The position numbers and the translations under genes were made by a program. Positions 8,957 to 41,398 of a stretch of 54,832 nucleotides of DNA are shown piece by piece (the first letter of the stretch is position 1; the number at the start of each line of letters is the position of its first letter). Location of the stretch: contig JAMDHS010000117.1 in the NCBI GenBank assembly GCA_029717555.1, forward strand, positions 1 to 54,832, given 5' to 3'. The stretch comes from Peribolospora baueri. Taxonomy: Eukaryota. The notes below the pieces were generated by a model. It was not told the DNA's origin and searched no databases. It worked only from the letters and a program-made list of their open reading frames with translations.

Positions 8957-11900
8957 ATGGCCACACCCACCCTCGACTCCGCCAGACCGTCCAGGAAACA
9001 GCAGCACACAACCGAACGGCCCACCTCCTCCTTTGTCCACCACTCCCATCAACGTCGTCTTTCTTTGTTCCCCCCCGACCAACTCGTTGCCCTCGACAAC
9101 GACAAAGGAAAGCAAAAGGCCACCCCCCTCCGCCCACCCGCTCATGACGCCTTAGCTCGTCTTCGCTCCTACTCCTTCCCCCCTCTCTCCTCCCCTCACC
9201 TCACCACGCCTCTCGTTCATCCTCCGCCCCCAGCCGCATCTCTCGCCATGGCCTCCTCTCCCCATCGCCGTCGTTACACCGACCAAGAGCTCAGCCGCGC
9301 CCTCGACCACTGGTCCTTCTGTCCTTTAGGCATGCCTCGAGATGATCTTATGCGATGCGCCGAGCTGCTCTTCTCTCGTGTCCTCTCCCTCCCTGTTGCG
9401 GACACCACCCTCGCCGCCTCTCTTGTCGTCTCCATCCACCAGATCCGCCTCTTCCTCGACGCTCTCTGGAACCTCTACCGCGATGCCAACGCATACCACA
9501 ACTTTGTACACGCCGTAGACGTTTTACAGGCCGTCTGGCGCTTTGTTGGCGCTCCAGGTGCCCCCCACGACGACCCAGACGGAGACCCGTCCGAGCCCTC
9601 TTCCTCCTCCTCCTCGCCCTCCCTACCATGCCCCCTCGACCCACCCACCCTCTTCTCCCTCCTCCTCGCCGCCATAGGCCACGACGCAGCCCACCCTGGT
9701 CTCTCCAACGCTTTTGTCGAAAACTCCCGGTGCGCCCTCCACACCCTTCACCCCGACGGCAGCGCCCTCGAACACCTCCATGCCTCCGCCGTCGAGAGCG
9801 CCTTGGAGACCGCCGGTTTGGGTCATCTCATTTGGCAGTCCGACTCCGATGCGGCCCAACACCGTCGGACGAGGACACCCACCGGCGCTCTCATCCGCCG
9901 CTGCATCCTCGCCACCGACATGGCCCTTCATTTCAACTTTGTCGAGCGCCTCGAGCGCTTCGCTCACTCTACTCCGGAGTCGTCGTCGCCGCCGCCAGTA
10001 GACGACTTTGAGGACAAGGTGCTGCTTTGCTCGGCATTGCTCAAATGCGCCGATATATCCAACCCCGTTAGTCCTCACCCTCCCTTTCTTTCTCCATCTT
10101 TCCCTCTCTCCTGCCCTTCTACTCACTCTCCCTTTCTTTCTCCGTCTTTCCCCACAGACCCGAGCCCTCCCCATCGCCCGCTTATGGGCCCTTGCCCTCC
10201 GCCAAGAATGGGATCGCCAAGCGACGCTCGAAAAATCCTTCGATCTCCCCGTCAGCGTCTGCTCCTCCAACCGCAGCGCCCCTCCCACTCCCAGACCTTC
10301 TCTCACTCCTTCCTCCTCCTCCTCCGCCGATGGTCAAAGAACCACCGCCTCCGAACGCCGCCGCCGCGCCGATCCCCGCGACCCCTCCGGCGGCCTCGTC
10401 GTCGTCGTCGCCTCTGCCGGATCGCGCGAGCGGCAGGGCAGCCTTGCCCAGGCTTTGGAGGCCCTCACCCGCAGCTCGCTCGTGCTCGTCGACGACCCTG
10501 GCTTTGCTGCCGCCGTCCTCGGCGACAGAGACGGCGCCGATCGCCTCGAGTCGCCGTCTGCCCTCGAGCCCGAGCACGAGTCCAAACCTCCCGATATGGA
10601 CGTACGCCGGCGACCGTCGGTGTCGCTGTCGGACCCAGACCGCTTGGCGGTCGAGGACGAGCTAGCGCTCGCAAAGGGACAAATTTTCTTCTCCTCCCTC
10701 TTCGTACGACCTCTCTACCGCGTCACCGCTGACATCTTGCCCTCCCTTCGACCGTTTGCGGAGGCGGCATTGGAGAACGAGGAGGGTTGGAAGGCGAGGC
10801 AGAGGACGCTTGAGGGTGTTTTGGAGCTTGGCGAGGGTGATAAGGACAAGGACGGCGACGGCGACAGTCAAGTCGACGCCTCCTCAGCAGAGGTCATCGA
10901 GCCAGGGGCGCGGGGGAGGAGGGCGAGCGTTCGTACGAAATCGAATCAGAACACGCCGGGAGGGCAGGTAGAGGAAGAGGGGCCCGTGGCTTCTTCGAAT
11001 CTGCCTCGCGACGACCATCCCGCCTTCATCCTCCCCGCCAACCTACCGACGTCGCCCTCTGCGGCCTTGTCCAAAGTCGACGTGTCGTACACCGGCGGTG
11101 CCAGGCGCAGATCTTCAGCCGCCGTCGTCGTCGCCTCTTCTTCTTCAGCCGCCATGAGGCAACGCAGACGAGAGGAGCTTGTCGCAGAACTTCATCCGCT
11201 TTTTCGACCCCATTTCGACAAAAATGCCCGAGTTGGCCGAGGAGGGCGAGGCGATGGCGAGGGGCGGACGGAGGAAGGAGGAGGGGAGTCGGGTGATGCG
11301 GGAGCGGGCGACGGCGCTGGCGACACCGCTGACGACGACGACGACAACGACAACGATCAGCCACAACAGCTGGCCAAAGCGGACGGCCTGCTTCGGCTCT
11401 TGTTCGCCGCCGCGTCGGCGCCCGTGTCTCCTTCGCACGCGTACTCCGATGTGCCCGACGGGGCGGCGTCCAGTCCGCCCTTTCTCGACGTGCTTCGTGA
11501 TGTGGATGAAAACGGTCCGGCCGAGATGGGGAAAGTCGACGAGGAGGGGGCGGCGGCGGAGGAGGAGGAGGAGGAAGGGCAGGAGGACGACCAGGAACAG
11601 GAGCTGGAGCACGACCGACGTCCGAGTCGCTTCTCCATTTCCATCTCCCCCACCTCCCACCGCCCTCGTCCTCGGTCCTGTGAGCCATCCTTCCCCTCGC
11701 GCGTCCCCCTCCCTTCTTCCTTCGACGGCCCCGCCGACGCCACGCACGACCGCCCTGAACTTTCCCTCGCCATCCCTGCCGCCCTGCGCCGCTCGTCCAC
11801 CGACGCCGACGCCCGCTCCGTACCGGACTCGGCCGCCTCCGCTCTCGCCTCCACCAGCTCGACGACCACCTCCGCGTCCACGTCCACCAACACCGACGCC

Positions 11901-13421
11901 GCCCGCGCCGATAGTCTTTTCAGCGTTCGCCGTTGGACCGGTGCAGGGACAAGTTCGCTGGCTGGCTCTTCCGTCACCGTCGCAACGAGTGCCACGAGCG
12001 CCACAAGCGCTATCAGTGCCGGCCAGCCTTGCAGCGGAGGACCGGCGGCGGCGGTCCAAGCCAAATCCGCCCCGGCCCTTCGCAGTGACGGCGGTTTCGC
12101 CTCTCACAATCGCAGCCCGGCCCCGGCCGCTACCTCTCCCCGTCCTTCTCGCCGTCATAGCGCCGACGGGGAGGAGGACGAGGGGGAGGACGCGGCGCGC
12201 AGGTCGGTCATGGACGACAGCGAGCGCGCGCACACGATCACGATCGCGGACAACAAGCGGCAGCAGCAGCAGCAGCAACAGCAGCACCAGAAGCACCAGC
12301 AGCACCAGCAACAATTACCACCACCACCACCTCAACAAGAACAACAACATCGTCAAAAAGGCTTGTTTAGTCTTCTGCCTCGCGCCGTCACCCGGACAAC
12401 CGGCTCCCGGTCCTCTTCCTCCGGCTCCCACTGGCACGCGCTTGGCCTTTTCCCCACGTCCCACTCATCCGCCTCCCCGTCTCCTGCCGCGTCGCCTTGC
12501 CTCTCCACCACTTCCACAGCCACCGTCCAATGTCCGCCACCGTCCGCCTCCTCCTCTTCCACTGCCAGTCCTCCCGCCCTTCACTTCACCCCCGCGGCCG
12601 CCGATGGCGTCTGGACGATGGACTTTGTCCCGGAACCGCCCGGCTCGCTCCCCGCTTCCTCGTCCTCCGCTTCGTCCTCATCCTCCTCCACGACCCCCGC
12701 CCCCGCCCCCGCCATTTTGCCTCCGTCGCCGTTATGGCACCCCGGAGACGCGGTCTCACCATCGCCGTCATCGTCGCTGTCGCCTTTCCACTCCCCTGCC
12801 CCGTCTTCCCCCGGCTCGTCCGTCTCCACCACTGCTTCCACCCCGTCTTCGGCCCCCGCCCGCGGTCTTTCTGCGTCGTTGTTGAGTCTCCAGCGTCTTC
12901 GGCCGAAGAGATCGTGGAGGCGGAGTGGCGCTCCCGCCCCCGCCCCCGCCCCCACTTCCGCTCCCGCCCCCACCGCCATGCTCGGCGACGATTCGGTCGT
13001 CTCTCTCGGTCGCGGTCCTCCCCAACCTCCTCCTCCCCGCCCGCATGTCTCCTCCGCCTCCGCCTCCGCCTCTTCTTCGCCTTGTGATCCCGGGTCGTCC
13101 GGCAGCTCGGGCCAGATCAGAGCAAGCGCGGTCTCCTCGTGCGCCTCGTCCTCCACCGTGCGCTCCTCCGCTTCTCCCCCGTCTTCCCTTCGAGGCCTCA
13201 GTCTGAGCCCGTTGTCGATCTCCGCTGTCGGCTCGCCAACACCAACGCCTTCGCCGATACACAGGAGAGCAAGCGCGCTGGCGAGCGCCTTGCCCACGTC
13301 CTTTTCCTGGACACGACGGAGGACGAGCGCGCCTTGCGCCACCACGGTTTCTGCCTCGGCCTCAGGCGACGGAGGCGGCGCCAACACGCCCTCCGGGGTG
13401 GTGTCGACGGGGGGGACATGA
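8957..13421 (+). CDS. Class I (HD-type, Pde2-like) cyclic nucleotide phosphodiesterase with a long low-complexity C-terminus; intron 10067-10157
   Basis: Motifs YHNFVHAVDVLQ, AIGHDAAHPGLSNAF, LEHLH, ILATDMALH, KCADISNP|TR (spliced), EWDRQ and GQIFF. Start codon uncertain (8957 or 9248). Confidence 0.88.
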
Positions 13422-14863: not shown

Positions 14864-17800
14864 ATGTCTACCACAGGTCCCGAATCGGTGCCCACCATAC
14901 TCCTCTTCGGACCTCAGGGCACCGACTTTTCCCCTACCCTCCACTCCCTCCTCGCCTCCCTCGGCCTGCTAGGAGACGACGCCACCGGCTCAGACGTCTC
15001 GTCCGCCGCTCCTTCCTCGCCTCGCCATACCGCTCGCATCTTCCTCCGCCTCGCCCTCGACGCTCTCCGCAGTGAGGCCGTCGCCTCCGCCGCCTACGAC
15101 AACAACGACAACGCCGCCGCCGTCGCCCGTCGTTGGTCCTCCTGGCACACCGTCCTCAACCACCAGGCCCAGTCCGGCTGGCAAGACGCAGCGGTCAACG
15201 GCGCGCTGCTCTGCGCGACCCAGATCGCCGTCGCCATCGTAGGACTCGGGTCCGGCCAGTCAGAGTCTCCTTCGCCGCCCCCGCCCTTGTACGTCGCCGG
15301 CTATTGCACCGGCCTCTTGCCCGCTCTCGCTCTCGCCCTCTCCGGTGTCGGCGTCCGCGCGTGGCATCACACCCGCTCCGACGTCGCTCACCGCCTCCTC
15401 GCCACATCGGTTCAGGCTGTGCGGCTCTGCTTTTGGATCGGATTTCGAGCCGCCAGGGCTCCGGCCACTGCTCTCCCTCCAACGGACGGCGTGGAGGGGG
15501 AGGGGGAGGACGGTGACGACGGTGACGACGGTGACGTCGACGACAGCGTCGAGCTCGACGGCCGCCGACACACGACTTGGACGATCGCAGTGACCGGCTT
15601 GGACGAAGCGCTGGTGCGCCAGCTGCTGGACCGATGGAACGAGCAGACAGTGAGTGAGCCCGTTCAATTCCGCTCCACCCTCCCTCCTCTTCTCACCTCG
15701 CCGCCTCGCTTTTGCTTTTGCCCGCCCGTCTTCAGGAAACGACGGCCTCCCGAGCCCTCTACATCTGCGCCATCACCTCTTCCTCCGAAATCTCCATTTC
15801 CGGTCCTCCGCCCGCCCTCTACGCCTTTCGCACTTGGATAGAGGAGACGAACAAGCGTACGTCCCAGTTGGCGCACTCGCCTAAACCCCGCGTCCGCGCC
15901 TTGCTTCTCAAAATCTTTGCGCCCTACCACACTCGTCTCTACGGCGCTGATGCCGCCTCCGAGCTCGTGATGAAGGACGCCGAGGCAAGAGGCATCCAGT
16001 TGCCCACCGCCACCACCGCCGCCGCCGCCGCGCCCCTCGCCGACGTCTTCTCGACCGTCGACGGACGGCGTCTGGACTTGGTCAACATGACCTCCCACGA
16101 CCTCCTTCGACACGTCCTTCACGCCGTCCTCCTCGAGCCCTGCGCGTGGGACAAGGTGCAGAGCTCGCTCATCCAGTCCATCTCCGCCTTGAACGACCAG
16201 GCGGAGGAGCCCTCCGCCCAGGTTCACGTCCGCGTCCTCGCCGCCGGCTCCTCTCGCGGCCTCGCCGCCCAGCTCGCCGATGCGCTCAGCAAGACGAAGA
16301 CCGGCCTGGGCGAGCTGCACGTTGACGTCGTCGACCTCGCACAGAAGCTTTCTTCTTCTTCCTCCTCTTCCGTCCCGCCCTCGCTTCCGTCCGCCGCCGG
16401 TTCGTGGGACGGCGCGACGGAGGAAGAACCTGGGCCAGACGACATCGCCATCGTTTCCGTCGCTTGTCGTTTTCCCGGCGAAGTCCAATCTCCAGACGCT
16501 CTCAAGGAGACGGTTGATAGCGGCAAGAACACGGCGGTCGAGGTGGGTCTCAAAGGCGCATTGCATCGCATCGCATCCGTCGGCACCGCTCGAATCGTTT
16601 TCTAACCATGCCCCGCCCGCCCGCCGTGTCCTCTCTCTTGCAGTTCCCAAGCTTCCGCTTCGACATGCGGAAATACTTCTCCGATGTCGACGACTCCGTA
16701 CCCCTCCCCCGTCTACACGCCGTCTCGGACATTGACCTCTTCGACCCACGCCTCTTTGGCCTTTCTCCCCGCGAGACTGAACAGATGGACCCGCAGCAGA
16801 GACTCTCCCTTCTTGTCACCCAGGAGGCCCTTGAACGAGCGGGTTACTCGCCGCCGTTCGAACCGGCGGCAGCCCGGTCGGAGTGGAACAAGAAGAGGAT
16901 AGGTTGTTGGTGGGCGGTGGCCAGCGATGAGTACGTTCCCCGCTTGCCCGAATCGTTTCATACCATCCACTGACACCGCCTGTGGCGCCCATATCCTTCC
17001 CCTCCATAGTTATCGCCATGTAAGTCTTCGTCTTCGTACCATCGCTGGCCTCCACAGTGTGAACCCCCGTCTGACCTCATCCGTCGTTCGTTCGCCGACA
17101 GAACGCATCCCACGAGATCGGCCCGTACTTTGTCACCGGCAACATCCGCGCCTTTGTCCCCGGTCATGTCAGCTACCTGTTCGGCTGGGAGGGACCCTCT
17201 ATTTCGGTCGACGCAGGCGACTGCTCCTCCCACGTCGCCATCCACCAGGCCACCGCCGCACTCGCTTCCGGACAGTGCGACGTCGCCCTCGCTGGCGCCG
17301 TCCACGTCGTCACCCAGCCGAGCACCTTTCTCGCCATGCGCGCCGCCAACCCCGCCGCCTTTACGTCCGAGCACGACCAGAGGGGCGAGGGCTGTGGCGT
17401 CCTCGTACTCAAGCGACACTGCGACGCGCTCGCCCACGGTGACAATGTTTTGGCCGTCATCAAAGCCGTAAACGTCGGCTTTGACCCGCGTTCCCGCGAC
17501 GCCGACGACGACGGCCCTCTGGGATTCCACATGGCGAGTGCCGAGGCGCAAGCCGATTCTCTTCGCACCCTCTTCCGTCGTGCCAAGGCGGATCCGGCCC
17601 GCACCGTTTCGGTGTGGCCGACGACGGCCTGCGCGAACTCCTCCTCCTTGCCCGAGTTCGACACGGACTCGCGCGCGGACATGCATCCTTCCGAGCGACA
17701 GGCCCTCCAGGACGCCTTCCGGTCCCGCGCCGCCGACGCCCACGGTGGCGACGCCCCGCGCGTGTCGTCTGTCAACGCCGTTGTCGGAGCGGCTGAGGCT

Positions 17801-20800
17801 GTGAGTAGTACGCTGCTGAGCCAGCCAGCCAGCCAGGTGACCGTCCGAGGCGGCCCGTCTGAATCTCTCGTATCGTCCTCTTCTCTCCTTTCTCGTATCC
17901 TGCTCGCTTCTCAGGCCTTTGGCATGGCTCAGGTCATCAGCGCGGTAATGGACCTTCAACCTCGACGCTCGCGACCCGAGTCGGAGTCGCGAGATGATGG
18001 ACGTTCTTACGCCGTCGTCAACGGCCTTTCGCGGACGGTGAGTTGCTCCCCACTCCCCCTCCCTTGGCGTAACCCGTCTGACCCTTCATTGTCATCGCTC
18101 ATTGGGGCAGGGAACGTACGCCGGCATATTGCTCCAGTCTCCGAGATCGTCGCTCGCCGATGGACAGCAAGCTTTGGCGGTCGTCGGAGAGAGGGCGAAA
18201 CACCTCATCCTCTTGTCCGCAAAGTCCGTCGAGGCCCTGGAGCAGAGGCGCACCAGGCTCGTCGCGTGGCTCGACGAGAGACGGCGCGACGCCGAGCCTA
18301 ATCTTCTGTCCCTCTTGGAGGTGGCCACCTCCGCTTGCGGCGTCCAGCATCGGCCGTTCCGACTGGCCGTCTCTGCGACCTCGCCTGACGACCTCGTTGA
18401 TCACCTCCGCTCGGCCGAGGCGTTCGAGATACCCGCCGAAGAGCCCGACGTCGGATTCTCGCTTGCCGCCAGCGATACGCCTGCCCGCGGCCAGTCCACC
18501 GAGTCTTTCAACCCGCTAGCGGACAGCTTCTGGGCCTCTTTCTACGCCGATCTTCGTGCCGCCCTCTCCGTCGCTCGAGCCCACGTCCCCTTCTTCTCCG
18601 AGAGCCCGACCATATCCCGCTTCTGTCGCCAGTACGCACTCGCCCGTCAGTACGCGCGGCTGGGTCTGCAGCCGACGTGCCTATCGGCAGACGACGCGAT
18701 CGGTTTGTGCGTCTGCTTGCACCTCGCCGGTTCTCTCGGCCTCGCGGAGCTCATGTGCCTGATATACGTCATGAAGGCCGGATCGGCACAAAACCTTCCG
18801 GATGAGCCGGTCACTGTGGCCCAGTTCTTGAATCGCCTTTCTCCCGCCCCGTCGTCCGTGCGCATCATGAGCCGCAGGTCGCGCTTGCTCGTCGACCGTG
18901 ACCAGCGTCTGGACCTGTCCAAGCTCTTCGGGCGACACTCCGATGCAGGAGAGGATCGAGAGCCGACTGGGGTGGAGTGGATTCCCATTCCCGATCCGCA
19001 GACGTCCTCTGGAGGAGGAGAAAAGGTCGCGGCTTCCGACCACGATCTCGTCCTCGATCAGCTTGCATCCCTTTACCGGGTCGGTATCGACATCGATTGG
19101 CTTCGTTGGCACGGTGAGGCAGCCGTCAGGCTGACCAAGCCGATCGTCGCTCGCCTCCCCACCTACCCCTTCCAGCTGTCGAGCTTTTGGATGGCCTATC
19201 GGGACCGCACCAAAACCTCGGCCACCACCGTCGTCGCTGAGCAGTCTTCGGAACCCGACGGCGCAGACGAAGCGGCGGGAACGTCCAAGGTGCCCACCCT
19301 CACCCTCGCCCGGCATCGCACCGCCTGTCCGCTGGTGCCAACCTGTCTCAGTCTCGTCAGAGATCCGCAGGGGCTCTGCGAGGTCCGTTTCGAGCCCGCC
19401 GCGGAGACCGCTCTTTCGGTCAAGGACTTCATATCCGCTTGCTGCCCTGTAGACGATCCAGCGGGGCGAGTCCCGCTGGCTTTCGTGATCGAAGCCATAG
19501 TCGAAGCGATGGTGCACGCTCAGAGGCAGCTTCAAGATTCGCACACGCCGATCGATATGACCGGGCTTCTCGTCCTCGATTGCAAAGGTCTCGATGGCGA
19601 CGGCGAATTGCGAGACCTTTGCCTGTCCGACTGTTGGGACCCTGCAGGCTCACCACCGATGATTAAAGCCGCTTTCGGAAACGGCATCCGCTCCTCTCTG
19701 TCCTTCCTTCCTATACATCCTCACCCGTCCGTGTGGTGGCGCGGTTCTTTGAACGATGCAGGGAAAAGCCAGATGGGCAAGCGGGTCGCTTATCGCGTCT
19801 TGGACGCCTTGGGCTTCTCTTATCCACCAGCGAAGCAGGCGTGAGTGCGAGTGACCCTCTTTTGCCGAGGGACGACGTTCTTCATTCGCTGACCCTTGAT
19901 CACATATCTTCCTGCCAGAATTTCGAACATCTCCGTGACGGACGGAGGCCGCATGCTCGAGGCGAGAGTGGACGTTGCCCTGGGAGCGCCGACCGGGTTC
20001 ACTGTCAGAGGTGTCTCCGTTCTCGATACCATGATCTGTGAGTGCTACCGGTAGCATTGTGGAAAGCAGCGCCCGATTTGTGAAAGTGTATTCATTTCTT
20101 TGCCGTTTCCGTCCTCGTTCTTTTCGTTCAGCCATCGCCTACTGTTCTTGCGCCGCCAAACTGCGTGGCACCACCAAGGTCACCACGATCAGTCAAGTGG
20201 GCAAGATCGCCATCGCACTTGACCGACTTGACGCGGCGAGCGCTAACGGTGGTCTCAGGGTATTTTGCCGCCTCTCGGCCGGCACCGAGTCTGCGTTGAC
20301 GCGTGCGGACCTTGTCCTCATCGATGAAGAGATGCTGGACTACCCCCTCGTCCACCTACAAGATGTCGAGATCGTCGCAGTGGACAAGAAGCCATCGCGT
20401 GCTCGGGCCCCGCCAGCAACTGAGCGACCCTCTAAGCGCGCCGTCCCGGCAAAGGAAGATCGCCCGAAGCCCGCCATGAACGCGGCTGATAGGAAGAATG
20501 AGCAACGGCTTGCCGAGCTTCACGACGTCATCATGGACGAGATGGGCGTGGAGAAAGACAAAGTGGGCCCGGATGCCAACCTGTTGGATCTTGGTTTGGA
20601 TTCTCTGATGTCTCTCTCGATTCTCAGCAGAGCTCGCGAGCAGTTTGACAATGTCGACTTCCCGAGTGACCTCTTCCAAGAGTGTCCCACCCTTCGGAAG
20701 ATTGACGCTTGGGTGCGACAAGCGACTGGGACGGCTTCAACTACAGCCCAAGATGAGCTCGTCGCCCCTGCAGATACCGTGTCGCAGACTGCTTCAGAAA

Positions 20801-22014
20801 CGCTGGTCGCACCTAGCACTGGATCGCCTCAGGCTTCTTCCGCCTTCCGGTCGCTTCTTTCGATTCTTAGCGAAGAGCTCGGCGTACCTGAGGATGAGCT
20901 CAAACACCAGGTCGACCTTGCGGACCTGGGTGTCGACTCTCTCATGAGCATCGTCGTTCTCGGCACGCTCCGAGAAGCGCACTCGATTGATTTGCCGTCC
21001 GATCTGTTCATCAACTATCCGCGGCTAGTCGATGTCGAGGGCTACCTGAACGGAATGTTTGAGGAACAGCCCACGGTTGCCCCGAGTCAACCCACGGCGC
21101 CTGCGCCCCTACAGTCCCTCAACGGCCATGGCACGCAAGTCGAATCGTCGATGGAGCCGTCGACTCCGCTTATGCTCCAGAAAGGTCCGCCTGATTCCAC
21201 TACGTCTCTCTTCATCTTCCCTGATGGCAGCGGATCACCAGCGGTCTACGCCGGATTGCCGCCCTTGGGCATGGCTGTCTGGGGATTGAGCAACCCCTTC
21301 GTCAACGACCCTGCGGCTTGGAAAGGGGGTGTCGAAGAGCTCGCATCGCTCTACTGGCGGAGCATCCAGATGGTCAAACCGAAGGGACGAGTCCTTTTCG
21401 GAGGTGAGCGGCCGGCCATCTTTGCTGCATTTCCATTCCTCATGCCGATCTGACGTTTCCATCATCCTTACTCCTCTGGATGGATAGGCTGGTCGTTCGG
21501 CGGCGTCGTCGCATACGAGACGTGCAGGCAGCTCTGCGCTTCGGGCGGGGGCGAATTTGTCGTCGATACCCTCATCTTGTTCGACTCGCCTAGTCCGGCG
21601 CGCTATCCGCCCTTGCCGCCGTCCTGCACCGACTGGATCTTCAAGTCTGGCTCTTTCCGAGGCATGGCCTCGCGGAGACTGACGCCTCAGATGGAGGCGC
21701 TGTTCGGAAGCACGCTCGACAACCTGGAGCGCTACGAGTGCAAGGCCCCGCGGCTATCGGTCCAGCGCGTCGTTCTGATCACTGCCGCGGATGGTGTTGG
21801 TGGGTCACTGAGCGATGTAGAGGGCGCCAATTCGACTGTCGAGTGGATGATGCGGTCTCGAAAAGGGCTCGGGCTGGATGGTTGGGAGCCGCTCTTGTCT
21901 TCGGTTCCAGAGACCGCACTGTCTGTCCACGAAGTCGACGGGGCAAACCATTTCTCCATGTGGAAAGAGCCACATGTTCGGCGCATTGGCGATATACTCT
22001 CTGAGACTCTGTAG
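14864..22014 (+). CDS. PKS-B: non-reducing PKS-like protein, SAT-KS0-AT0-PT0-ACP-ACP-TE (about 10 exons)
   Basis: SAT GYCTG (15299-15313) and APYH. KS-like IAIVSVACRFPG and MDPQQRL, but DAGDCSS replaces DTACSSS, no HGTGT, and VGAAEA replaces xGHxE. The AT region lacks GHSxG. ACP motifs GLDSL (20593-20607) and GVDSL (20929-20943). TE motifs FPDGSGS, G|GWSFGG (spliced), DSP and NHFSM. The frame stays open across canonical introns (15650-15735, 16543-16643, 16931-17009, 17020-17101, ~17801-17914, ~18038-18110, 19841-19918, 20038-20131, 21404-21487). Confidence 0.9.
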
Positions 22015-22693: not shown

Positions 22694-25600
22694 TCACGCA
22701 CACAAGACCTCTGCCACTCGCCGAACAGCCGGCTTCTTCATGAGCGAGAAGTGGTCGGCGTCGACGGCAATCCGACGGACGACAAAGTCGGACTCGAGTT
22801 CCTCGTCGCCAGAACGGAAGAGCTTCTGCCACGCTTCGAGCGAACGCAGGCTCACCGGAAGATCCGCGCCATGACCGACACGGCGGGTCGCCTCGATGAT
22901 GACAACTTGCATCGCGATCCGGTCCGTCTTCGCCGCCGAACGCGTCGACCCGGTGAGCAAAGACCTCGGGCGCAAAGGCTTGGAGATGTGATCCCTCAAG
23001 GCCTGGGCGCAAAAGATAAAGTGCCGTTTCTGGTAAGCCGGGATGTCTCGGTTGTTGAAAAAGTGTTGGAATATGTCTCTCGGCGCTCGCCGTCCCGGGA
23101 GCAGCGCGGGCGGAGGCGAGTCGATGATGTACAGCGCCTCGACCGTCTCGCCCATCTCGGTCAGCAGGCGGCAGACCTCCAACGCCATGAGGCCACCGGC
23201 GCTCCATCCGCCGAGACGATAGGGACCCCTCGGCTCCTGCGCTAGAATCTGGTCGAGGTAGCTGAATGCGGCTTGCGATACGCCCTCGGCCCATCTTTCC
23301 GGCTCCTCAAGGAAAGGGCTGTCGAGAGCGTAAACGCGTGCCGCTCCCAAGTCGAACTCGGCCAACTCGTTGAGCGCTCCAGCCGAGCCACTCCCATCGG
23401 CAAGGAGAAACAGCGGCGCTCGGCCGACATCGGACCGGAGGCTGCTGCTTCGACGGAGCGACACGAGGCTTGGGCGGCGGTCCTTCACGTGCGACTCGCC
23501 ACAGGGCGACACCGTCTGGGTGTTGTGGAGTCGCTGGTCGAGTTCTGGGCCAAGCTTGTAAAACGTTGGCGGCAAGGCGTTCTGGCAGTTCCGCGGGCTG
23601 GAGGGGTCAGAACCCACGACTGTGGTAGTTGGACTGCTCGTCGCCTCATTGCTGCTGTCGTCAGCCTTTGTGAACGCCGACTTGGACTGAGCTCCCGTGA
23701 TCCTAGGCGAGGGGAAGAGCGCCCTGAAGACGGTTTCTTTCATCCTGCGGAACTGGACGCCCTCCATCATGCCCACCAAGTCGCCCGTCCCCGCCTCGAA
23801 AAAGTAGGCGTCGCCGCACACAACGCCTCCGTTTGAGCCGGGCAAGGGGTACATGGCGCAATACGCATGCAGGGGCACCCCAGGTCCCTTCCTTGTCGTT
23901 GCCGCGCTGATCTTCTCAACGTCGAACCGCACGCTCGCCAGTCCGTTCGCGATGTAGACCTCACCCTGCCCAGCAAGGCTGACGTTGGGGATGAAGCCCG
24001 ACAGCTGTCCAAGCGAGTCCTGTATCACCGGGTTAACGACAAAGTCGCCGGCGGGTGCCTCCAGGGACAGGCGAACGTCCGACACGGCCTCATGGCCGTT
24101 TTCCGAAAAGTAGACGGACTGCATGCCTTGGTAGAAGCGTTCGTAGGTGACGACACTCTCGAAGAGCTCGTAGCCCAGGTCGGCCTTGATCACATCGTCG
24201 GACCGTTCACGAAGAATTTCGGCACGGGTGGTGACGAGCGGCCGCATGTGCTTCCAGAGGTCGTCCAACGATCGCCGGCCGCCGGCCTCCTGAGGGACGA
24301 CAACGCAAGTGCCGTGCTCGCGCTCGTGGAAACGCCCATCCTGGTCTGTCCCACGGCTGGCGAGGCTGATGACGAGCCCAGATCCATCTTTGGCGAGACT
24401 TCCCTTGGCGGTGACGATGATGACTTGGTCACCGTTCTGGTCGTCATGTCGAGTCAAGGGGTGCGAAATGGCGACGTCCTTGACCTCAAACGCCGGGCAC
24501 GTACCGTCGTCATCCTTCCCGCCGTCCTGCAGGTAGTTGGCCACCTCGAAAGCGAGCTCGGAGACCATCGTTGCAGGGAGGAGGCCCGCACCGCCGACCT
24601 TGTGGCCCATGATGATTTCCTTGCACGGCGAGCGGTTAGTCTTAGTCTCGAACGTCGCCTCTACAAGGTCTCCGGTCCGGGACGCGCACAGGCATACGTC
24701 CAAGAGACTGCCTCGGGGCCGTGGGAGATGCTGAGCCGGCTGGGGGTCATCCTTCCGAGCGCTGTCGGAGGACGCAAGGTGGTCTCTCAGATTCCTATCT
24801 GCGTATTCGATCCAATAGGCCGCGTCACTCCCTTTCACGTCGAAGGGATACGTCGGTACGCCAGCCAAAAGGTGTCGGGGTTTAGAGCCGAAGTCCTCGT
24901 ACACCCGCCCCCAATCGAGGTCCGCGCCGTGCAAGTAGGCGGCGCCGAGCAGGTCGAGGACGGACCGCGAAGGGTCGACGCCTTTTCGCAGACATGGAGT
25001 GCACGTCGGAGTGAACGAGGAGGAAGAGTCCTTCGAGATGTTACCGGTACCCTTCTTGAGCGTCTCGACGACCATGGGAGCGAGGAGGGCCGTCGGTCCC
25101 ACTTCCAACCACATTGCGTCTGGCCCTGCAAGTCTGAGCAAGTTGCTCACGCCCGGCTCGAATGCCACTGTTTCGGCCGACTGGCGAACGAGATAGTCCG
25201 CGTCAATGACGCCGTCCTCGAGCCCCACGACCTTCCCACCGACGTTTGCCGCCACGGGAAGGTTCGGCGGCCTGAACTTGACCGTTCGGACCACCTCCGA
25301 AAAGGGCTCGAGCATGGGATGCACCGCGCTAGAGTGGAACCCGAACGGGACTGGAAGGACGGTGGCGCGACGGGGGCCTTGAGCGTTGGTCGTCGACGCG
25401 TTCTTGACATAGTCCGCCAGCCGACGAACGTCGTCGATGGGTCCGCTGACGACCGTGTCCTTCGGGCTGTTCACGCATGCCACCTGGCAAACGTCCTCGC
25501 ACTTGGCCTCCGTTAGGAGCATACGGACGACTTCTTGTCCAGCGTCCAGGGCAACCATACCAGTCTCGCCCGGTCGGCAGAGCTGAGCGGCCAGCCTGGC

Positions 25601-28600
25601 TTTGCTACCAACGAGCCGAAGCGCGCTCTCCAGGCTCATGACACCTGCCACGAACAGTGCGGCGTACTCTCCCAGGCTGTGGCCGATCACTGCCGAGGGC
25701 TGCATTCCCCAGCGTTTCAGTAAGCCGAAAAGAGACGCCTGGACGGAAAAAATGGCCAGCTGCTCTTGCTCCGGCGAGGGCGAAATTGCCTTGCCACCGT
25801 TCGCTGCATCCTCACCATGAAAGAAGGAGAGGAACGGCTCAAAGCCCCAAGCGACTGCGAGACGATGGCAGTGCTTGAGGTGACATCTAAAGGGCTTGCA
25901 GACGCGGAAGAGCGTCTTGGTGGAAGCTTGAAAGGGAGAGCCACCTTGACCGGAGAATACCCACACCGAGCGTGGAGACGTAGGACTGATCGCCGGAGCT
26001 CGGGGCGGGTCTCCAGGCTCGAGGAACTTCCGCAAGTCATTCATGTCATTCACGACCGCCGCGGCACGGTATAGCTGGCGGCGATGGGTCCGCCCAGCCG
26101 TGGCGACATAGCAGAATTCTCGAAGCCTTGCCGCCTCTGCGCCTGTCCCTTCTTCGCCTCCCCGTGCAAGGAAGGCGGAGTAACGACGCCGGAGCTCGGA
26201 GAGAGCAGTCGGAGTGCCGGCGGACAAAGCGATGACCACTGGCCGAGACCGCTTTCCATCGCCGCCGGACGTGTGAACGACGGAGACGGGTCTCTTCGCT
26301 TGAGGCGCGTCTCGCAGGACCAGACACGTATTACCGCCAGCAGCGCTGAAGTTGGCGACGTAGACAGTGCGTGGTCCTTCCGTCCGACGCGGGAACGGCG
26401 CGCCTCCCGGAGGAGCGAGGCTGAGACCGTCGAGAGAAGGCAACTGCGGGTTCATGGTGGTGGAAATGCCGATATGAACGGGCACAGACTCTCGCTCGAG
26501 CATAAGCAATGCCTTGACGAGCGCGATGGCACCGGAAGCTGACTCGGAGTGTCCCACGTTCGCCTTGACAGAGCCGATGACGAGAGAGGTGGGCAACGCG
26601 GCGGCTTGTGGTCTGAGCGCATTCTTGACGGCGGTGAGTTCGACCTTGTCGCCAGCCTGCGTGCCCGTGCCGTGACATTCCGCAACGTCCACCTGCTCCG
26701 GACGAAGGCCGCACTCGCTCACTATGCTGGTGCAGAGTTCCGCTTGGGTTCGGGCATCGGGGTGCGTTATACTGACGCTGTTGCCCGAGTGGTTGGTAGC
26801 CGCCGCGGTGATGACACCCAGAATGCGGTCCCCGTCACGTGAAGCGTCGGACAAACGCTTGAGGAGCACGAAGCCGATGGCATCTGCACGCGAGTAGCCG
26901 TCGGCGGTGCGATCCATAAACTTGCACTGGCCGGTGGGCGACAGGAAAAAGCCCCTGTCCAAGCCGACGAATATCTGAGGCTGGGTCAAGACATTGACGC
27001 CGCCGGCGAGCGCCGCCGTACATTCTCTGCGCGCTATGGACCTGCAAGCAGACTCGATAGCGACGAGCGAGGAGGAGCAGGCGGTGTCGAGGGTGATGGA
27101 AGGGCCCGTCAAGCCGAAGAAGTCGCTGATGCGGTTGGAGATGAGCGGTCGATGGGTGCCGAGGAAGTGATAGGGATGCATCTTTTCAGGCCTCTCGCCG
27201 TCACGGCCGCCATGCTCCTGATAGTCGTCGCTCGACACACCCACGAAGCAGCCGATCTGGTGCCCTCTCGTTTCAGGGACATAAGCGGCATATTCAAAGG
27301 CCTCGTGAGCACACATGAGCGCCAGACGCTGTTGAGGGTCCATCTGACGCACGGTCTCCCGGTCGGCGATGCCGAAGACGTGCCTGTCGAACGTCTTGAC
27401 CTGCGACTCGGAAAAGGCGTTCATGGTATGGGCGCGCATCGAGTTGCGCTCCCGACGACCCTTCGCGTCGGTGCGCCAATAGTCATGCACGTCGAACAGA
27501 TGGGGAGGGATCTGCGAAGACAGCAAGAAGACTGGGATTAAGAACCGGGTCGGCGACAGGCCGCGGGGAAATTCTTCACCGTACGTACCTCTGTGCACAT
27601 GTTGCGGCCGCGTTCGAGGAGCGCCCAGGCTTCGTCCAAATCGTCAGCACCGGGGACTCTGCAGCTCATGCCAATAACGGCGACCTGCTCGTTTTCCGAT
27701 TGGCCGAGGCAGGACAGCGTGGGAGGCCGGGGGGTGCCGATCGAGGGCGCATCAACGCGAACGTCGAGGAGGGATGGCTTGCCTCCAATCTGAACCCAAG
27801 CGCTCCGAACGGCGTCCAACATGCGTTCATCTTCCTCGGTGGATGCGAGAGAAGGGAGGATGGTGACGGAGGCGGGTGCACCGGCCTCGGTCCGCGCTCT
27901 GAGGTCGGCTAAAGCGTTCGAAAGGTCGCGCTTGTCATCTGGCGTCGACGAAAGGAGCACATCGGATAGACCGACGTCTGCATGAGTCTGAAGAGCGTCC
28001 AGGAACGCTTGACGGCCGTCAGGGTTGATGCGGTCGACGGCTGACAACGGTGTTCGACGAGGTGGGCGGAAAGGTGCCGCAGGTGATGAGCGTGAGGGGG
28101 AATCAAGGAGGAGGGAGCGATGAAGCTCGTCGATCGATGCGGTTGGCCCCGCAAAGAGGTAGGAACCATCGTTCAACGTTCTGACGAGACGGACGGACGA
28201 GGCAACCGTAGGAGGCTGTGAAGGGTGCCAGATCATCAGCGGCGAGCTAACAGTCAGTGTAGGAAGATTGGTGGGCACGCACGAAAGTGTCAGACATGTC
28301 TTGAGTGGAGACGCTGACGAAAGCTATGAGACCTTGGACGTCGTTAGACGCCGTCTTTTGACGGAGATGTCGAAGCAGCGCCCGCTCTGCCCGAACCGAG
28401 GTTTTGATAGCTTGGACCGCCGAGTCGAGTAGTTGGTCCATCGACTGATCGGCATGGAGGACGGACGCGTAGATCGTGGCGAAACCGAGAGCCAAAGTTC
28501 GAGGCCGAGCGCCGGCGGAAGCGGCAAGGACGACGGTGGCCAGTTGAAGGAGACATTCTGTGGAGAGGTAAAGCCGGTGCGAATGACCGCCCCACGACGG

Positions 28601-28885
28601 GGAGCAATCGCTGCCTCGCAAGAGCACTGCCTCGAGATGGCCAATCTGTTGCAAGAAAGCGAGGTTGAGCTCATCTTCGGCGTCATCCTCGTCGGCCACG
28701 CACTTCGCCGCCCCCACCGTCTCTTGACGGAGAGCATGAAGAGCTCGGAGGAGAAAGGAGTGCAAGATGGAGTTGCATCGAGAGGCATTGGACAGGTGTG
28801 AGAGTCGTTCGTCCAAGCGAGTTAGAAGCGCCGGAACATGGTCGCTTGAAGGCGGAAAGAGAAAAAGAGGCGACGGGGAAAACAT
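22694..28885 (-). CDS. PKS-A: non-reducing PKS, SAT0-KS-AT-PT-TE with no ACP (exons 28885-28283, 28215-27589, 27511-22694)
   Basis: KS triad DTACSSS, ECHGTGTQAGD and NVGHSE; AT motifs FSGQG, GHSLGEY and FGFHS; PT dyad GHKV and QDSLGQ; TE motifs LADGSGS, GWSAGG, DSP and DHFSLM. No GxDSL motif between PT and TE, and no GxCxG in the N-terminal SAT-sized region. Confidence 0.93.
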
Positions 28886-31717: not shown

Positions 31718-31748
31718 ATGATTGATTGATTGATTGATTGATGATTCA
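31718..31748. repeat. (GATT)n microsatellite
   Basis: Read directly. Confidence 0.85.
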
Positions 31749-32264
31749 TGCGTTCCTGAACCCCTTCTCGCCCCGGCCGGCGGGCAGCCCGACTCGCTCT
31801 CCTGGCACCTTTCCTACCAAGCTCCGCCTCGCGAGCGACGTTCGGCAACGGGAGGCGAGCGGTGCGGGCGACTTGCGAGAGCGGGAGGGACGGAGAACGA
31901 GGACAGGCGGGGATGAGAGACACCGGCGCGAGGGAACGACGGGGCGGGAGCAAGACGCGTCAAAGTTGAGATGGCCCGCGACGGCGAAGCGCCGACTCTT
32001 CTTTTCTTGCGACAAGATTCCATGATCATTTGGTCGTACATGTGTCCCGGCCGACAGACAGCATTGATCCACGACCGCGTCCTCGTGGGAGAGCGGTGAC
32101 GTTCATCTTCCCATCTCCATTGCCATCCTACCACATCGCCACCGCCATTGCCTCTTTCTCATTGCACCTCCAGCCCCATCCTCGTCGCTTGACTTCCAGT
32201 CGAACGCGGACACTCTTTACTCCCCCCGACCGAGCGGCCCACTGGCCATCGCGACCTCGCCGAC

Positions 32265-40459: not shown

Positions 40460-41398
40460 GTCGTCGTATCGGCGGGTTCGAGTAGGCGAGCTGACAGTGG
40501 TGGATGCTCGTTGATGGTCGAGGGATGATCAGAAACGAGAGATGTCATGCTCAGGTCATGCATGGCAGGGCTGTCTGAGACCTGCTGATCAATTCCCATC
40601 GTGACCAGGGCACCCGTTAGGATGAGTAAACGAAGCAACCATCCCCTGTCCGTGACGATCCCAAGTCCGGCAGACCTGCACGATTGTCAGCAAAGCCGTC
40701 GTGGTTGTGGTGGTTAGTCAGTCGCTCAGACGTGCCAAAAGCAGACCGCGTGCGACTCGTCCGATATTGAAAAGGTAACAAGACTGGGTTCTGAGCTCGA
40801 GGACAGCGGATGGAAGAAAGCTGAGGCGTACCATGGCCAGCTCGTCCCCAGTCCCTGCCGCGAAGAAACACGGCGCCAACTTGCGTCACTGCCGTGCGAG
40901 CGTCGCTTACGTAATTTAATACCACTTCAGCTCAAAGACCCGTTCATTTAAGAGCAGCTTGCCACACTTCCATGCATCCTTCCGTCCACCTCGGCCGCCG
41001 ACATCCACTCGTCGACCCTCGTCGTCGTCCCTCGTCCTCGCCCCTCACTCGTGGCAGCTTTGGGGATCGCACGACTCATATCGGCTCTCCTGCCGACATC
41101 CCCCCCGGTGCAGTGAACTCCTTTCACAATGTTTCATTTGTTTCGATCGTCCTGAGCGGCCGCCATGAAAGCAATTTCAAATCGCCTCGCCCCCCCGCCT
41201 GCGATGCATCGAGCGATCGCATTGTCGTTTAAACACGATCAATTTCCGAGCAATGCTGATGTCTCTTTTACAGACGTCAGGGCCTTGGCTAGGACCCTTG
41301 AACGGCGGCTCGACACCCTGCATGAGCGGCGAATCGACTGGACTGGATTCACTGCTGCCGAGCGGAGCGATGACATCTCGTCAGACACGCAGGACTGT

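What the first reader, a model, noticed from the sequence alone, without database searches (positions are those of the whole stretch)
16441..18110. PKS-B retains a near-full KS domain with all three catalytic positions altered, a possible chain-length-factor-like partner
Seen: SVDAGDCSSHVAI (17204-17242) aligns without gaps to PKS-A TLDTACSSSLVAI, putting Asp at the catalytic Cys position and a Cys one residue later. HGTGT is absent and NVGHSE corresponds to VVGAAE. The N-terminal half (MDPQQRL, SDDY, YFVTGNIRAFVPG, FGWEGPS) is well preserved. Established: KS domains dimerise, and bacterial type II PKSs pair an active KS with an inactive CLF. Inference: this KS0 is kept as a heterodimer interface that brings the ACPs to PKS-A and may shape the chain pocket.
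Basis: partly seen in the sequence, partly recalled or inferred. Interest (0 to 1): 0.78.

Follow-up and report, generated by a model that had tools for sequence, protein, structure and literature searches.

The report
Dead ketosynthase in a split fungal PKS
One of two neighbouring fungal polyketide synthase genes keeps a ketosynthase domain that can no longer do chemistry, apparently as a structural partner for the other gene's working enzyme, a division of labour already known genetically from the corn smut fungus.

Summary
PKS-B (+ strand, 14864-22014) is an intact 10-exon gene for a 2119-aa protein: SAT-KS0-AT0-PT0-ACP-ACP-TE. In its KS the catalytic Cys is Asp (17219-17221), both His and the Lys are replaced, and only the N-terminal KS half is recognisable. 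The convergent neighbour PKS-A (22694-28885, minus strand) has an active KS, AT and PT plus a TE, but no ACP and no SAT cysteine.

This is not a private decay. Ten distinct proteins, mostly from smut-type basidiomycetes, carry Asp or Glu at the Cys position and have lost both His. Their KS domains form one clade, and in Tilletia horrida such a gene sits next to an ACP-less partner gene. The "shifted Cys" is not conserved, so it is unlikely to be catalytic. The KS0 N-terminal half is the best-conserved part of PKS-B, above ACP and TE. The C-terminal half, AT0 and PT0 have drifted, though AT0 still models as a MAT fold.

Best reading: PKS-B is the carrier and scaffold subunit of a two-protein NR-PKS like Ustilago maydis Pks3/Pks4. 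KS0 is kept for pairing. A KS:KS0 heterodimer is likely but untested, because the complex predictor was unavailable.

The parts
14864..22014 (+). PKS-B gene. 10 exons: 14864-15649, 15736-16542, 16644-16930, 17010-17019, 17102-17800, 17915-18037, 18111-19840, 19919-20037, 20132-21403, 21488-22014. Encodes 2119 aa: SAT-KS0-AT0-PT0-ACP-ACP-TE.
   Evidence: Nine GT..AG introns of 73-114 nt give one open frame. Pfam on the exons. In a ~97% identical relative, the listed exon indels are 12, 15 and 3 nt and the listed 1-nt indels lie in predicted introns.
16438..18134 (+). KS0 pseudo-ketosynthase domain (residues 497-912), interrupted by five introns.
   Evidence: HMM envelope, coordinates, PF00109 hits on the exons.
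16438..17476 (+). KS0 N-terminal half (residues 497-755), the best-conserved part of PKS-B. Carries the family motifs ACRFP, EALExAGY, SDDYRxNAS, FxTGNIRAFxPG, WEGPSxSxD and QCDxALxGxVxxxTQP.
   Evidence: 39-48% identity and 0.76-0.97 bit/aa to seven relatives. Mean pairwise identity within the family 0.36-0.80 (0.51-0.80 in seven of eight windows).
17010..17019 (+). 10-nt micro-exon that completes SDDYRH and keeps the reading frame.
   Evidence: Flanked by ..ATAG and GTAAGT. It restores the family motif DDYRxNAS.
17219..17221 (+). Asp670 codon at the position of the catalytic Cys.
17222..17224 (+). Cys671, the 'shifted' Cys. Not conserved in relatives.
   Evidence: Relatives have S, S, S, M, C or G here.
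17477..18134 (+). KS0 C-terminal half (residues 756-912). Degenerate: His1 place reads Asp817 (17660-17662), Lys is Asn855 (17774-17776), His2 is Ala860 (17789-17791).
   Evidence: No PF02801 hit. Alignment. Family identity 0.16-0.41. Partial-domain AF2 model has pLDDT <50 in part of this half.
14864..16389 (+). SAT domain of PKS-B with GYCTG (Cys148, 15305-15307) and PYHT (His327, 15928-15930).
   Evidence: PF16073 at 4.5e-19. GxCxG at this place in 7 of 8 KS0-family proteins.
18135..19184 (+). KS-AT linker plus AT0. GHSxG is replaced by ADDAIG (Asp1099, 18693-18695) and the xFHS His is lost.
   Evidence: No PF00698 hit. Alignment. The AF2 model of the exon best matches the CTB1 and PksA SAT-KS-MAT structures by Foldseek, E 2e-12.
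19185..20385 (+). PT0, the degenerate product-template region. The catalytic His place is Cys/Pro.
   Evidence: No PT/DH Pfam hit on the PKS-B exons. Alignment. About 20% identity or none to relatives.
20488..21075 (+). Two ACP domains with intact LGxDSL serines (Ser1678 at 20602-20604, Ser1790 at 20938-20940).
   Evidence: PF00550 at 2e-28, two stretches. Coordinates.
21178..22011 (+). TE domain of PKS-B (GWSFGG Ser1947 at 21493-21495, His2099 at 21949-21951).
   Evidence: PF00975. 36-43% identity to relatives.
22694..28885 (-). PKS-A gene, convergent with PKS-B. 3 exons: 28885-28283, 28215-27589, 27511-22694. Encodes 2015 aa. SAT-like N-terminus without GxCxG. Active KS (Cys 27077-27079, His 26672-26674 and 26549-26551). 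AT (Ser 25676-25678). PT (His 24602-24604). TE (Ser 23201-23203). No ACP.

Best explanation
PKS-B is the non-condensing carrier and scaffold subunit of a two-protein non-reducing polyketide synthase. Its catalytic partner is the neighbouring PKS-A. Shown: PKS-B's KS, AT and PT lack their catalytic residues, while its two ACPs, its TE and the Cys/His of its SAT are intact. Also shown: PKS-A has an intact KS, AT, PT and TE but no ACP and no SAT cysteine. Shown too: this complementary, adjacent pair is conserved across Ustilaginomycotina, and within KS0 the constraint lies on the N-terminal half, not the active site. Inferred: chain extension must run on PKS-A's KS and AT, using the phosphopantetheine arms of PKS-B. 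Inferred: KS0, with the still MAT-shaped AT0, is kept as the architectural core that positions those ACPs. The most likely way is by pairing its N-terminal half with PKS-A's KS in a pseudo-symmetric SAT-KS-MAT heterodimer, a type I counterpart of KS/CLF. Inferred: the conserved Asp/Glu at the nucleophile position probably stabilises the start of the active-site helix in a pocket that has lost its histidines, rather than doing chemistry.
For: Catalytic residues: Cys to Asp, His1 lost, Lys to Asn, His2 to Ala. AT Ser and His and PT His lost. ACP, TE and SAT motifs kept.

Gene integrity: one 2119-codon frame through nine canonical introns. In a ~97% identical relative, the listed exon indels are in frame and the listed 1-nt indels sit in predicted introns.

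Partner: PKS-A has no PF00550 and no GxDSL motif. Its best relatives (33-37% identity) are ACP-less KS-AT-PT-TE proteins of Ustilaginomycotina. All 13 checked, PKS-A included, keep Cys/His/Lys/His and GHSLGE.

Family: of 479 KS domains in 318 stored proteins, an acidic residue at the Cys place occurs in 17 rows, which are 10 distinct proteins. None of these shows either His; in the fragmented P0171 the His columns fall on other pieces. The 7 Gln and 10 Arg variants all keep both His.

Phylogeny: the seven KS0-type rows in the tree, including one that keeps its Cys, form one clade (SH-aLRT 98) with PKS-B inside it. PKS-A plus PKS-B as sisters is rejected (AU p 3.5e-5).

Adjacency: Tilletia horrida KAK0552225/6, KAK0546028/9 and KAK0563429/8 are consecutive accessions on shared contigs. 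The Testicularia cyperi pair lies on contigs of equal length.

Constraint map: KS0 N-half 39-48% identity to relatives, against TE 36-43%, ACP 31-46%, SAT 23-27%, AT0 21-27%, with KS C-half and PT0 near noise. Family pairwise identity is 0.51-0.80 in seven of eight N-half windows (0.36 in one) and 0.16-0.41 in the C-half.

Fold: AT0 models confidently (blocks of pLDDT 73-95), and its best fold matches are the SAT-KS-MAT structures of CTB1 and PksA.

Genetics in a relative: U. maydis Pks3 and Pks4 are each required and together sufficient for orsellinic acid, and neither has KS, AT and ACP together (preprint passages).
Against: No direct evidence for A:B contact. Complex prediction could not be run, no RNA run is listed and no genome is held.

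N-half conservation is equally expected if KS0 only homodimerises, so it does not separate heterodimer from homodimer.

PKS-B's KS0 sits on a long branch (0.99 against a median of 0.19) with deviant composition.

Its C-half and part of its N-half model poorly (mean pLDDT 59.8), but that was a partial domain with a 38-aa intron translation and a 28-row alignment.

The only substitutions visible against the close relative fall in the SAT part: 17 synonymous against 17 non-synonymous. By my rough estimate that is dN/dS of about 0.3. The other 184 listed differences were not shown, so selection on KS0 itself is unmeasured.

The link to U. maydis Pks1/2 or Pks3/4 rests on architecture and on other Ustilaginaceae proteins. 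No U. maydis sequence was obtained.

Tilletia horrida also has a KS0 protein with an intact AT and no ACP (P0017), so KS0 modules occur in more than one combination.
Confidence: 0.6

Rival explanations
1. PKS-B forms its own homodimer through KS0, as ordinary NR-PKSs do through their KS. It serves as a free-standing carrier (SAT-ACP-ACP-TE on a dead scaffold) whose ACPs visit a separate PKS-A homodimer in trans. KS0 is kept for self-dimerisation and for holding the SAT, not as a partner of PKS-A's KS.
For: The same complementary domain sets and N-half conservation are expected under this model. The U. maydis authors themselves proposed an in-trans model likened to trans-AT systems. KS0 and PKS-A KS belong to separate old clades.
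Against: A trans-acting carrier would not obviously need about 900 residues of dead KS-AT-PT maintained across classes of Ustilaginomycotina. Strict gene adjacency suggests stoichiometric co-assembly. A 2023 review states that Pks3 and Pks4 act as heterodimers, but it shows no data in the passage I saw.
Confidence: 0.25
2. KS0 keeps a non-condensing chemical role that uses the conserved acidic residue or the adjacent Cys671. Examples would be decarboxylative priming like KSQ/CLF, or acyl holding or transfer.
For: Asp or Glu at the nucleophile position is conserved in 10 distinct proteins. PKS-B and P0131 have a Cys directly after it.
Against: Both His residues needed for decarboxylation are gone in every acidic-type KS, whereas all 7 KSQ and 10 Arg variants in the same set keep them. 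The +1 Cys is not conserved: S, S, S, M or G in the other five, and Cys only in PKS-B and P0131. The C-terminal half that builds the pocket is the least conserved part.
Confidence: 0.06
3. PKS-B is a decaying duplicate on its way to becoming a pseudogene, and KS0 is simply rotting.
For: Long branch and deviant composition. Many indels in the KS C-half. PT0 and AT0 are unrecognisable to Pfam. Only moderate constraint in the visible SAT differences.
Against: 2119 codons stay open through nine introns, including a 10-nt micro-exon. Listed exon indels in a relative are in frame. ACP, TE and SAT motifs are intact. PKS-A has no ACP of its own. The same dead-KS architecture is conserved in distant relatives.
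Confidence: 0.04

Closest known systems
Ustilago maydis Pks3/Pks4 (orsellinic acid, silent melanin cluster) and the adjacent Pks1/Pks2 pair (teliospore melanin)
   Same: Two NR-PKS-type genes, neither with a complete KS+AT+ACP set. One looks like SAT-KS-PT-ACP-ACP-TE without an AT. Both are required and together sufficient for orsellinic acid. Pks1 and Pks2 are adjacent, widespread in Ustilaginaceae and suggested to form one complete PKS. The window's two proteins fall in clades with Ustilaginaceae proteins.
   Different: Identity to the Ustilaginaceae relatives is only 33-48%. The papers I could read do not analyse active-site residues: 0 hits for active site, cysteine, catalytic or inactive in the preprint. 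The preprint proposes that the ACP-bearing protein borrows an AT in trans. Here the ACP-bearing protein's KS is dead as well, so both KS and AT must come from the partner. No U. maydis sequence was compared here. No tailoring genes were recognised in this window.
KS/CLF (KSalpha/KSbeta) heterodimer of bacterial type II PKS
   Same: An active KS paired with a KS-fold protein that has lost the nucleophilic Cys. This is a proposed functional analogy only.
   Different: As I recall, CLF is a stand-alone protein with Gln at the Cys place that shapes the tunnel. KS0 is embedded in a 2119-aa type I protein, has Asp, lacks both His, and branches inside fungal NR-PKS KSs. Heterodimer formation and pocket shaping are untested here.
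KSQ loading domains and KS0 (non-elongating) domains of modular and trans-AT PKS
   Same: KS-fold domains that do not condense.
   Different: The KSQ examples in my own set keep both His (7 of 7). As I recall, trans-AT KS0 keeps Cys and loses the HGTGT His. PKS-B loses Cys, both His and Lys.
Canonical fungal NR-PKS loading/condensing region (CTB1, PksA SAT-KS-MAT structures)
   Same: Same domain order. The AT0 model's best fold matches are 8CG6, 6FIJ and 8CG4. The KS N-half aligns to these chains.
   Different: All condensing, malonyl-transfer and cyclisation residues are missing in PKS-B.
Engineered animal FAS heterodimers with one fully compromised subunit, and fungal FAS alpha/beta (both recalled, not from a call)
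   Same: Megasynthase function with catalytic sites supplied by one subunit and carrier or other functions by the other.
   Different: The FAS heterodimers are laboratory constructs, and fungal FAS is a different architecture. Here the partition is natural and lies within an iterative NR-PKS.

Membership tests
Split two-protein NR-PKS of Ustilaginomycotina (U. maydis Pks3/Pks4 or Pks1/Pks2 type) | Complementary domain sets: ACP only on one protein, active AT (and KS) only on the other | tested here: met
   Pfam. Motif counts. Catalytic columns.
Split two-protein NR-PKS of Ustilaginomycotina (U. maydis Pks3/Pks4 or Pks1/Pks2 type) | The two genes are neighbours | tested here: met
   Convergent in the window, 680 bp between the stop codons. 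Consecutive accessions in three T. horrida assemblies.
Split two-protein NR-PKS of Ustilaginomycotina (U. maydis Pks3/Pks4 or Pks1/Pks2 type) | Sequence kinship of each partner with the corresponding partner in smut fungi | tested here: met
   KS tree: PKS-B lies in the KS0 clade (98) next to the Moesziomyces antarcticus protein. PKS-A lies in a starred 15-row set (98) of the 13 ACP-less rows plus two rows I had grouped as canonical. No U. maydis protein was included.
Split two-protein NR-PKS of Ustilaginomycotina (U. maydis Pks3/Pks4 or Pks1/Pks2 type) | Both proteins required and together sufficient for product | not testable with these tools
   Known only for U. maydis Pks3/Pks4.
Type II PKS chain-length factor (KSbeta) | KS-fold protein lacking the catalytic Cys | tested here: met
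   Asp670.
Type II PKS chain-length factor (KSbeta) | Gln at the Cys position with a decarboxylation-competent pocket (recalled definition) | tested here: not met
   Asp, with both His lost.
Type II PKS chain-length factor (KSbeta) | Obligate heterodimer with an active KS | not testable with these tools
Type II PKS chain-length factor (KSbeta) | Common descent with CLFs; stand-alone protein | tested here: not met
   KS0 nests within fungal NR-PKS KSs and is part of a 2119-aa protein. No CLF sequence was in the tree.
KSQ decarboxylating loading KS | Gln for Cys with both His kept | tested here: not met
   PKS-B reads D/D/A at the three columns. All 7 KSQ domains in the set read Q/H/H.
Trans-AT type non-elongating KS0 | Cys kept, HGTGT His lost (recalled definition) | tested here: not met
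   The Cys is lost.
Catalytically competent NR-PKS ketosynthase | Cys-His-His triad plus Lys, and a recognisable C-terminal KS half | tested here: not met

The most novel reading that the evidence does not exclude
KS0 and PKS-A's KS form an obligate pseudo-symmetric heterodimer, an independently evolved type I, eukaryotic counterpart of KS/CLF. In it the strongly conserved family-specific N-half segments of KS0 (FxTGNIRAFxPG, SDDYRxNAS) cross the interface and line the partner's acyl tunnel. They would then help set chain length. The conserved Asp/Glu would fill the dead nucleophile site. The whole synthase would be a natural 'one competent active site per dimer' megasynthase, with SAT, ACPs and one TE on the dead subunit.
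Probability: 0.25. Interest if true: 0.75.

Novelty: new member of a known kind. Interest (0 to 1): 0.58.

Why it matters
Iterative type I PKSs and FASs are normally homodimers in which each subunit carries every function. A naturally partitioned pair puts condensation, malonyl loading and cyclisation on one chain. Carrier, release and probably starter loading sit on a chain whose KS, AT and PT survive only as folds. Such a pair is a ready-made system for asking which contacts in a megasynthase dimer are architectural and which are catalytic, and whether ACPs work across subunits.

It also revises the published working model for the U. maydis-type split PKS. If those proteins match the relatives examined here, the ACP-bearing partner does not merely borrow an AT. 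Its KS is dead too.

For genome mining, KS domains reading D/E at the Cys column with no His are a simple marker. They flag 'half' PKS genes that should be expressed together with their ACP-less neighbour.

Tried and rejected
- **Complex prediction.** I tried complex prediction on the Tilletia horrida natural pair (P0220 KS with P0126 KS0, alignments A1 and A2). Nothing was folded. The window's own PKS-B KS0 could not be submitted, because it exists only as a spliced sequence.
- **Expression.** No RNA holder was listed for 16400-18200, so splicing and expression are unverified.
- **dN/dS on KS0.** The relative's contig (run X3) covers the gene, but only the first 40 of 224 listed differences were shown. 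All 40 lie upstream of KS0.
- **Whole genome.** None is held.
- **Earlier notes.** None exist for this genome.
- **Close orthologues.** phmmer with the AT0-PT0 exon against 1.84 billion representatives gave 88 hits at E<=1e-3, the best at 29% identity. The word-indexed searches gave nothing closer. The window's own protein was not among the hits.
- **Partial-domain model.** AF2 of window:17102-18037 gave mean pLDDT 59.8 and was not used for fold search.
- **Full-length alignment.** MAFFT on 32 whole proteins timed out. I replaced it with HMM-cut KS domains.
- **Antisense and off-frame ORFs** over the finding (16958-18085, 15664-16815 and 17173-17910 on the minus strand, 16903-17442 on the plus strand) have no Pfam hit and were rejected as GC-rich artefacts.
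- **Single-intron alternatives** to the micro-exon were rejected. Joining 16930 to 17102 directly shifts the frame. A donor at 16935 gives SDEY|NAS, which has a poor donor site and loses the family DDYRxNAS motif (my reading).
- **PKS-A and PKS-B as a recent local duplication** was rejected (AU p 3.5e-5). I named that grouping after seeing the tree.
- **Literature.** Searches found no paper describing the dead KS of these fungal split PKSs. The final AEM version (PMC7848912) is not held. The bioRxiv supplements and figures, including the domain figure 3A, could not be seen. The J Fungi supplement held as text was 59 characters long with no match. Islamovic et al. 2015 was seen only as cited by others.

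Full report
**What the window is**

The window is fungal-type DNA with about 62% G+C, and its genes are broken by short GT..AG introns. The finding lies in a gene on the + strand. I modelled it as 10 exons (14864-22014) joined by nine canonical introns of 73-114 nt. This gives one open frame of 2119 codons.

One exon is only 10 nt long (17010-17019). It is needed to keep the frame, and it restores the motif SDDYRxNAS shared with relatives.

Pfam on the exons finds the following:
- SAT at 4.5e-19.
- The N-terminal KS family PF00109 at 5.7e-15 and 5e-23.
- A KS-AT linker, weakly.
- Two PP-binding domains at 2e-28.
- A thioesterase.
- No C-terminal KS family (PF02801), no acyltransferase and no PT/DH family.

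**The observation**

window:17204-17242 translates to SVDAGDCSSHVAI. BLASTP and MAFFT both align it without gaps to TLDTACSSSLVAI of the neighbouring PKS. So Asp670 (17219-17221) stands at the catalytic Cys and Cys671 follows it.

- The first His (HGTGT) has no counterpart; the aligned stretch is PEFDTDSRA, after a 13-residue insertion.
- The second His is Ala (VVGAAE).
- The conserved Lys is Asn.

The domain is near full length (416 aa against 423). Its C-terminal half, however, has a 9-aa deletion, a 13-aa insertion and a deletion of about 33 aa. That half does not align significantly to PKS-A.

ORFs on the opposite strand and in other frames over the region have no family hits.

**The neighbour**

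PKS-A lies convergently on the minus strand. It has 3 exons (28885-22694) and encodes 2015 aa. Its features are:
- a complete KS: Cys, both His and Lys;
- an AT with GHSLGE;
- a PT with His and Asp;
- a TE with GWSAGG;
- no PP-binding domain and no GxDSL motif;
- an N-terminal SAT-like region with no Pfam SAT hit and no GxCxG.

PKS-B is the mirror image:
- Its AT reads ADDAIG in place of GHSLGE and has lost the xFHS His.
- Its PT has lost the catalytic His.
- Its two ACP serines, the TE Ser and His, and the SAT GYCTG Cys and PYHT His are in place.

The recognisable flanking genes are housekeeping ones: mitochondrial DNA polymerase, a phosphodiesterase, CDC20 and Nup98-96. No tailoring enzyme was recognised.

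**Not a private accident**

No close orthologue of PKS-B exists in the libraries I could search. The best hit of a full phmmer scan with the AT0-PT0 exon had 29% identity, and only 88 hits reached E<=1e-3.

The distant hits are still informative. The proteins below all have the same order, SAT-KS-(no AT motif)-PT-ACP(1-3)-TE. Each reads Asp or Glu at the Cys column and has lost both His:
- Thecaphora frezii (P0124)
- Tilletia horrida (P0126)
- Moesziomyces antarcticus (P0131)
- Violaceomyces palustris (P0171)
- Testicularia cyperi (P0133)
- several unnamed records (P0122, P0136, P0165)

Two relatives depart from this pattern:
- A Botryobasidium protein (P0139) has the same architecture but keeps Cys and the first His.
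- A second T. horrida protein (P0017) has Asp with an intact AT and no ACP.

An acidic residue at the Cys column occurs in 17 rows, which are 10 distinct proteins. None of these rows shows either His. In the fragmented P0171 the His columns fall on separate pieces. The 7 Gln and 10 Arg variants all keep both His.

The residue after the acidic one is S, S, S, M or G in five relatives, and Cys only in PKS-B and P0131. The 'shifted Cys' is therefore not a conserved feature.

**The partner family**

PKS-A's best relatives have 33-37% identity over more than 90% of its length. They are KS-AT-PT-TE proteins without PF00550, from Tilletia, Violaceomyces, Tilletiaria, Pseudozyma flocculosa, Ustilago, Sporisorium, Melanopsichium, Testicularia and Kalmanozyma. 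By my count, 21 of the 120 listed rows lack PF00550. All 13 that I checked, PKS-A included, have Cys/His/Lys/His and GHSLGE, and none has a GxDSL motif.

GxCxG at the SAT position is present in 7 of 8 KS0-type proteins and in 0 of 11 ACP-less proteins.

In T. horrida the ACP-less and KS0 proteins carry consecutive accession numbers on the same contig, in three assemblies. In Testicularia both lie on a contig of the same length.

**Phylogeny**

I built a KS tree of 31 rows. P0171 was left out because only half of its KS was recovered. The method was quick IQ-TREE with LG+G4 and SH-aLRT support only.
- The KS0-type proteins form one clade (98), with the Cys-keeping Botryobasidium protein branching first.
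- PKS-B sits beside the Moesziomyces protein (95).
- PKS-A lies in a starred 15-row set (98) made of the 13 ACP-less rows plus two rows I had grouped as canonical.
- PKS-B's terminal branch is long (0.99 against a median of 0.19) and its composition deviates, so its exact place is uncertain.
- A tree forcing PKS-A and PKS-B together is rejected (AU p 3.5e-5). I named that grouping after seeing the tree.

The two partners are therefore old, separate lineages, not a recent local duplication.

**Where the constraint lies**

| PKS-B region | Identity to seven relatives |
|---|---|
| KS0 N-terminal half | 39-48% (0.76-0.97 bit per residue) |
| TE | 36-43% (six relatives; P0017 has no TE) |
| ACPs | 31-46% |
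| SAT | 23-27% |
| AT0 | 21-27% over long alignments in five relatives; short fragments only in two |
| KS0 C-terminal half, PT0 | near noise |

The KS0 N-terminal half is thus the best-conserved part of the protein.

Within the KS0 family, mean pairwise identity is 0.51-0.80 in seven of the eight windows covering residues 497-755, and 0.36 in the eighth. It falls to 0.16-0.41 over residues 756-912. The active KSs stay at 0.26-0.62 throughout, 0.34-0.62 in all but one window.

The strongest blocks are family-specific: FxTGNIRAFxPG, SDDYRxNAS and WEGPSxSxD. As I recall, in KAS and KS dimers the N-terminal half carries the dimer interface, and the segment before the active-site helix lines the partner's acyl pocket. 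That is recollection, not a tool result.

AT0 gets no Pfam hit, yet it models with confident blocks (pLDDT 73-95). Its best fold matches are the SAT-KS-MAT structures of CTB1 (8CG6, 6FIJ; E 2e-12, 16% identity) and PksA (8CG4).

A partial-domain model of KS0 was of low quality (mean pLDDT 59.8), and I did not use it further.

**Is the gene alive?**

A relative about 97% identical (coded run X3) covers the whole gene in one contig.
- Its listed exon indels are 12, 15 and 3 nt.
- Its listed 1-nt indels (16942, 17824, 17835) all fall in introns of my model. Twenty-one further indels, of both runs together, were not shown.
- Only the first 40 substitutions were shown, all upstream of KS0. They split into 17 synonymous, 17 non-synonymous and 6 non-coding.
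- By my rough estimate that is moderate constraint, dN/dS of about 0.3, on the SAT part.
- Selection on KS0 itself remains unmeasured.
- No RNA run is listed.

**Literature**

| Source | What I saw | Content |
|---|---|---|
| U. maydis preprint 10.1101/2019.12.28.889758 | passages | See below |
[quoted passage not shown] | 2023 review, PMC10098057 | passage | States that Pks3 and Pks4 work as heterodimers |
| PMC10401856 | passages | Basidiomycete NR-PKSs can work without their SAT |

The preprint shows that pks3 and pks4 are each required and together sufficient for orsellinic acid. It says neither has KS, AT and ACP together, and that Pks3 lacks an AT. It speculates that the AT is recruited in trans from Pks4. 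It contains no mention of active-site residues.

I found no paper describing the dead KS. The final AEM paper is not held. Figures and bioRxiv supplements were not visible.

**How it most likely works**

PKS-A supplies condensation, malonyl loading and cyclisation. PKS-B supplies the phosphopantetheine arms, a TE and probably starter loading. KS0, with the MAT-shaped AT0, is retained as the architectural core.

The simplest arrangement is a pseudo-symmetric SAT-KS-MAT heterodimer joined through KS:KS0. It would work like KS/CLF without being related to it.

The main rival is a PKS-B homodimer that lends its ACPs in trans to a PKS-A homodimer. My data do not separate the two, because the complex predictor was unavailable.

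A chemical role for Asp670 or Cys671, and plain pseudogene decay, are both unlikely for the reasons given above.

Noticed in passing
window 22694-28885 (minus strand): PKS-A is an NR-PKS-type protein with an active KS, AT, PT and a TE but no ACP at all. About 110 low-complexity residues sit where the ACPs would be. Its N-terminal SAT-like region has lost GxCxG (it reads LGFATIY) and gets no Pfam SAT hit.
   Followed up: yes
window 17010-17019: A 10-nt micro-exon flanked by 79-nt and 82-nt introns is needed to keep PKS-B in frame. Gene callers may miss it and report a broken gene.
   Followed up: partly
window 17801-17914: This 114-nt intron is in frame and has no stop, so the ORF 17075-18301 reads straight through it. 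If retained, it would insert 38 residues just after the VVGAAEA motif.
   Followed up: no
P0017 (Tilletia horrida, 1757 aa): A third architecture: SAT-like N-terminus, KS with Asp/Asn/Asn at the catalytic columns, an intact AT (GHSLGE) and a PT, but no ACP or TE. Dead KS domains therefore occur in more than one combination in the same species.
   Followed up: partly
P0139 (Botryobasidium botryosum, 2055 aa): Same AT-less architecture but with Cys and the first His kept and the second His changed to Tyr. It branches first in the KS0 clade and looks like an intermediate stage of KS inactivation.
   Followed up: partly
P0126 residues about 545-572 (Tilletia horrida): The deposited model has a 27-residue insertion inside the conserved NASxxIxSYF segment that other family members lack. 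It is probably an unspliced intron in the annotation.
   Followed up: no
window 8957-13421: A cyclic-nucleotide phosphodiesterase gene (PF00233) is followed by a very long Ser/Ala/Pro/Gln-rich open frame (10002-13421, 1139 codons). It could be a low-complexity extension or a compositional artefact.
   Followed up: no
window 15213-16151 and 18134-18392: In run X1, which may be the source of the window, extra short contigs overlap parts of the PKS-B SAT region with 4-17 differences, small indels and joints. These could be allelic variants, a diverged second copy or assembly bubbles at the acidic Asp/Gly repeat.
   Followed up: no
window 29500-36700 and 39273-45400: Several ORFs of 180-380 codons have no Pfam hit (32068-34123, 34487-36502, 39273-40247, 42254-42829, 44406-45083). 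Unrecognised tailoring or regulatory genes of the PKS pair could be among them.
   Followed up: no
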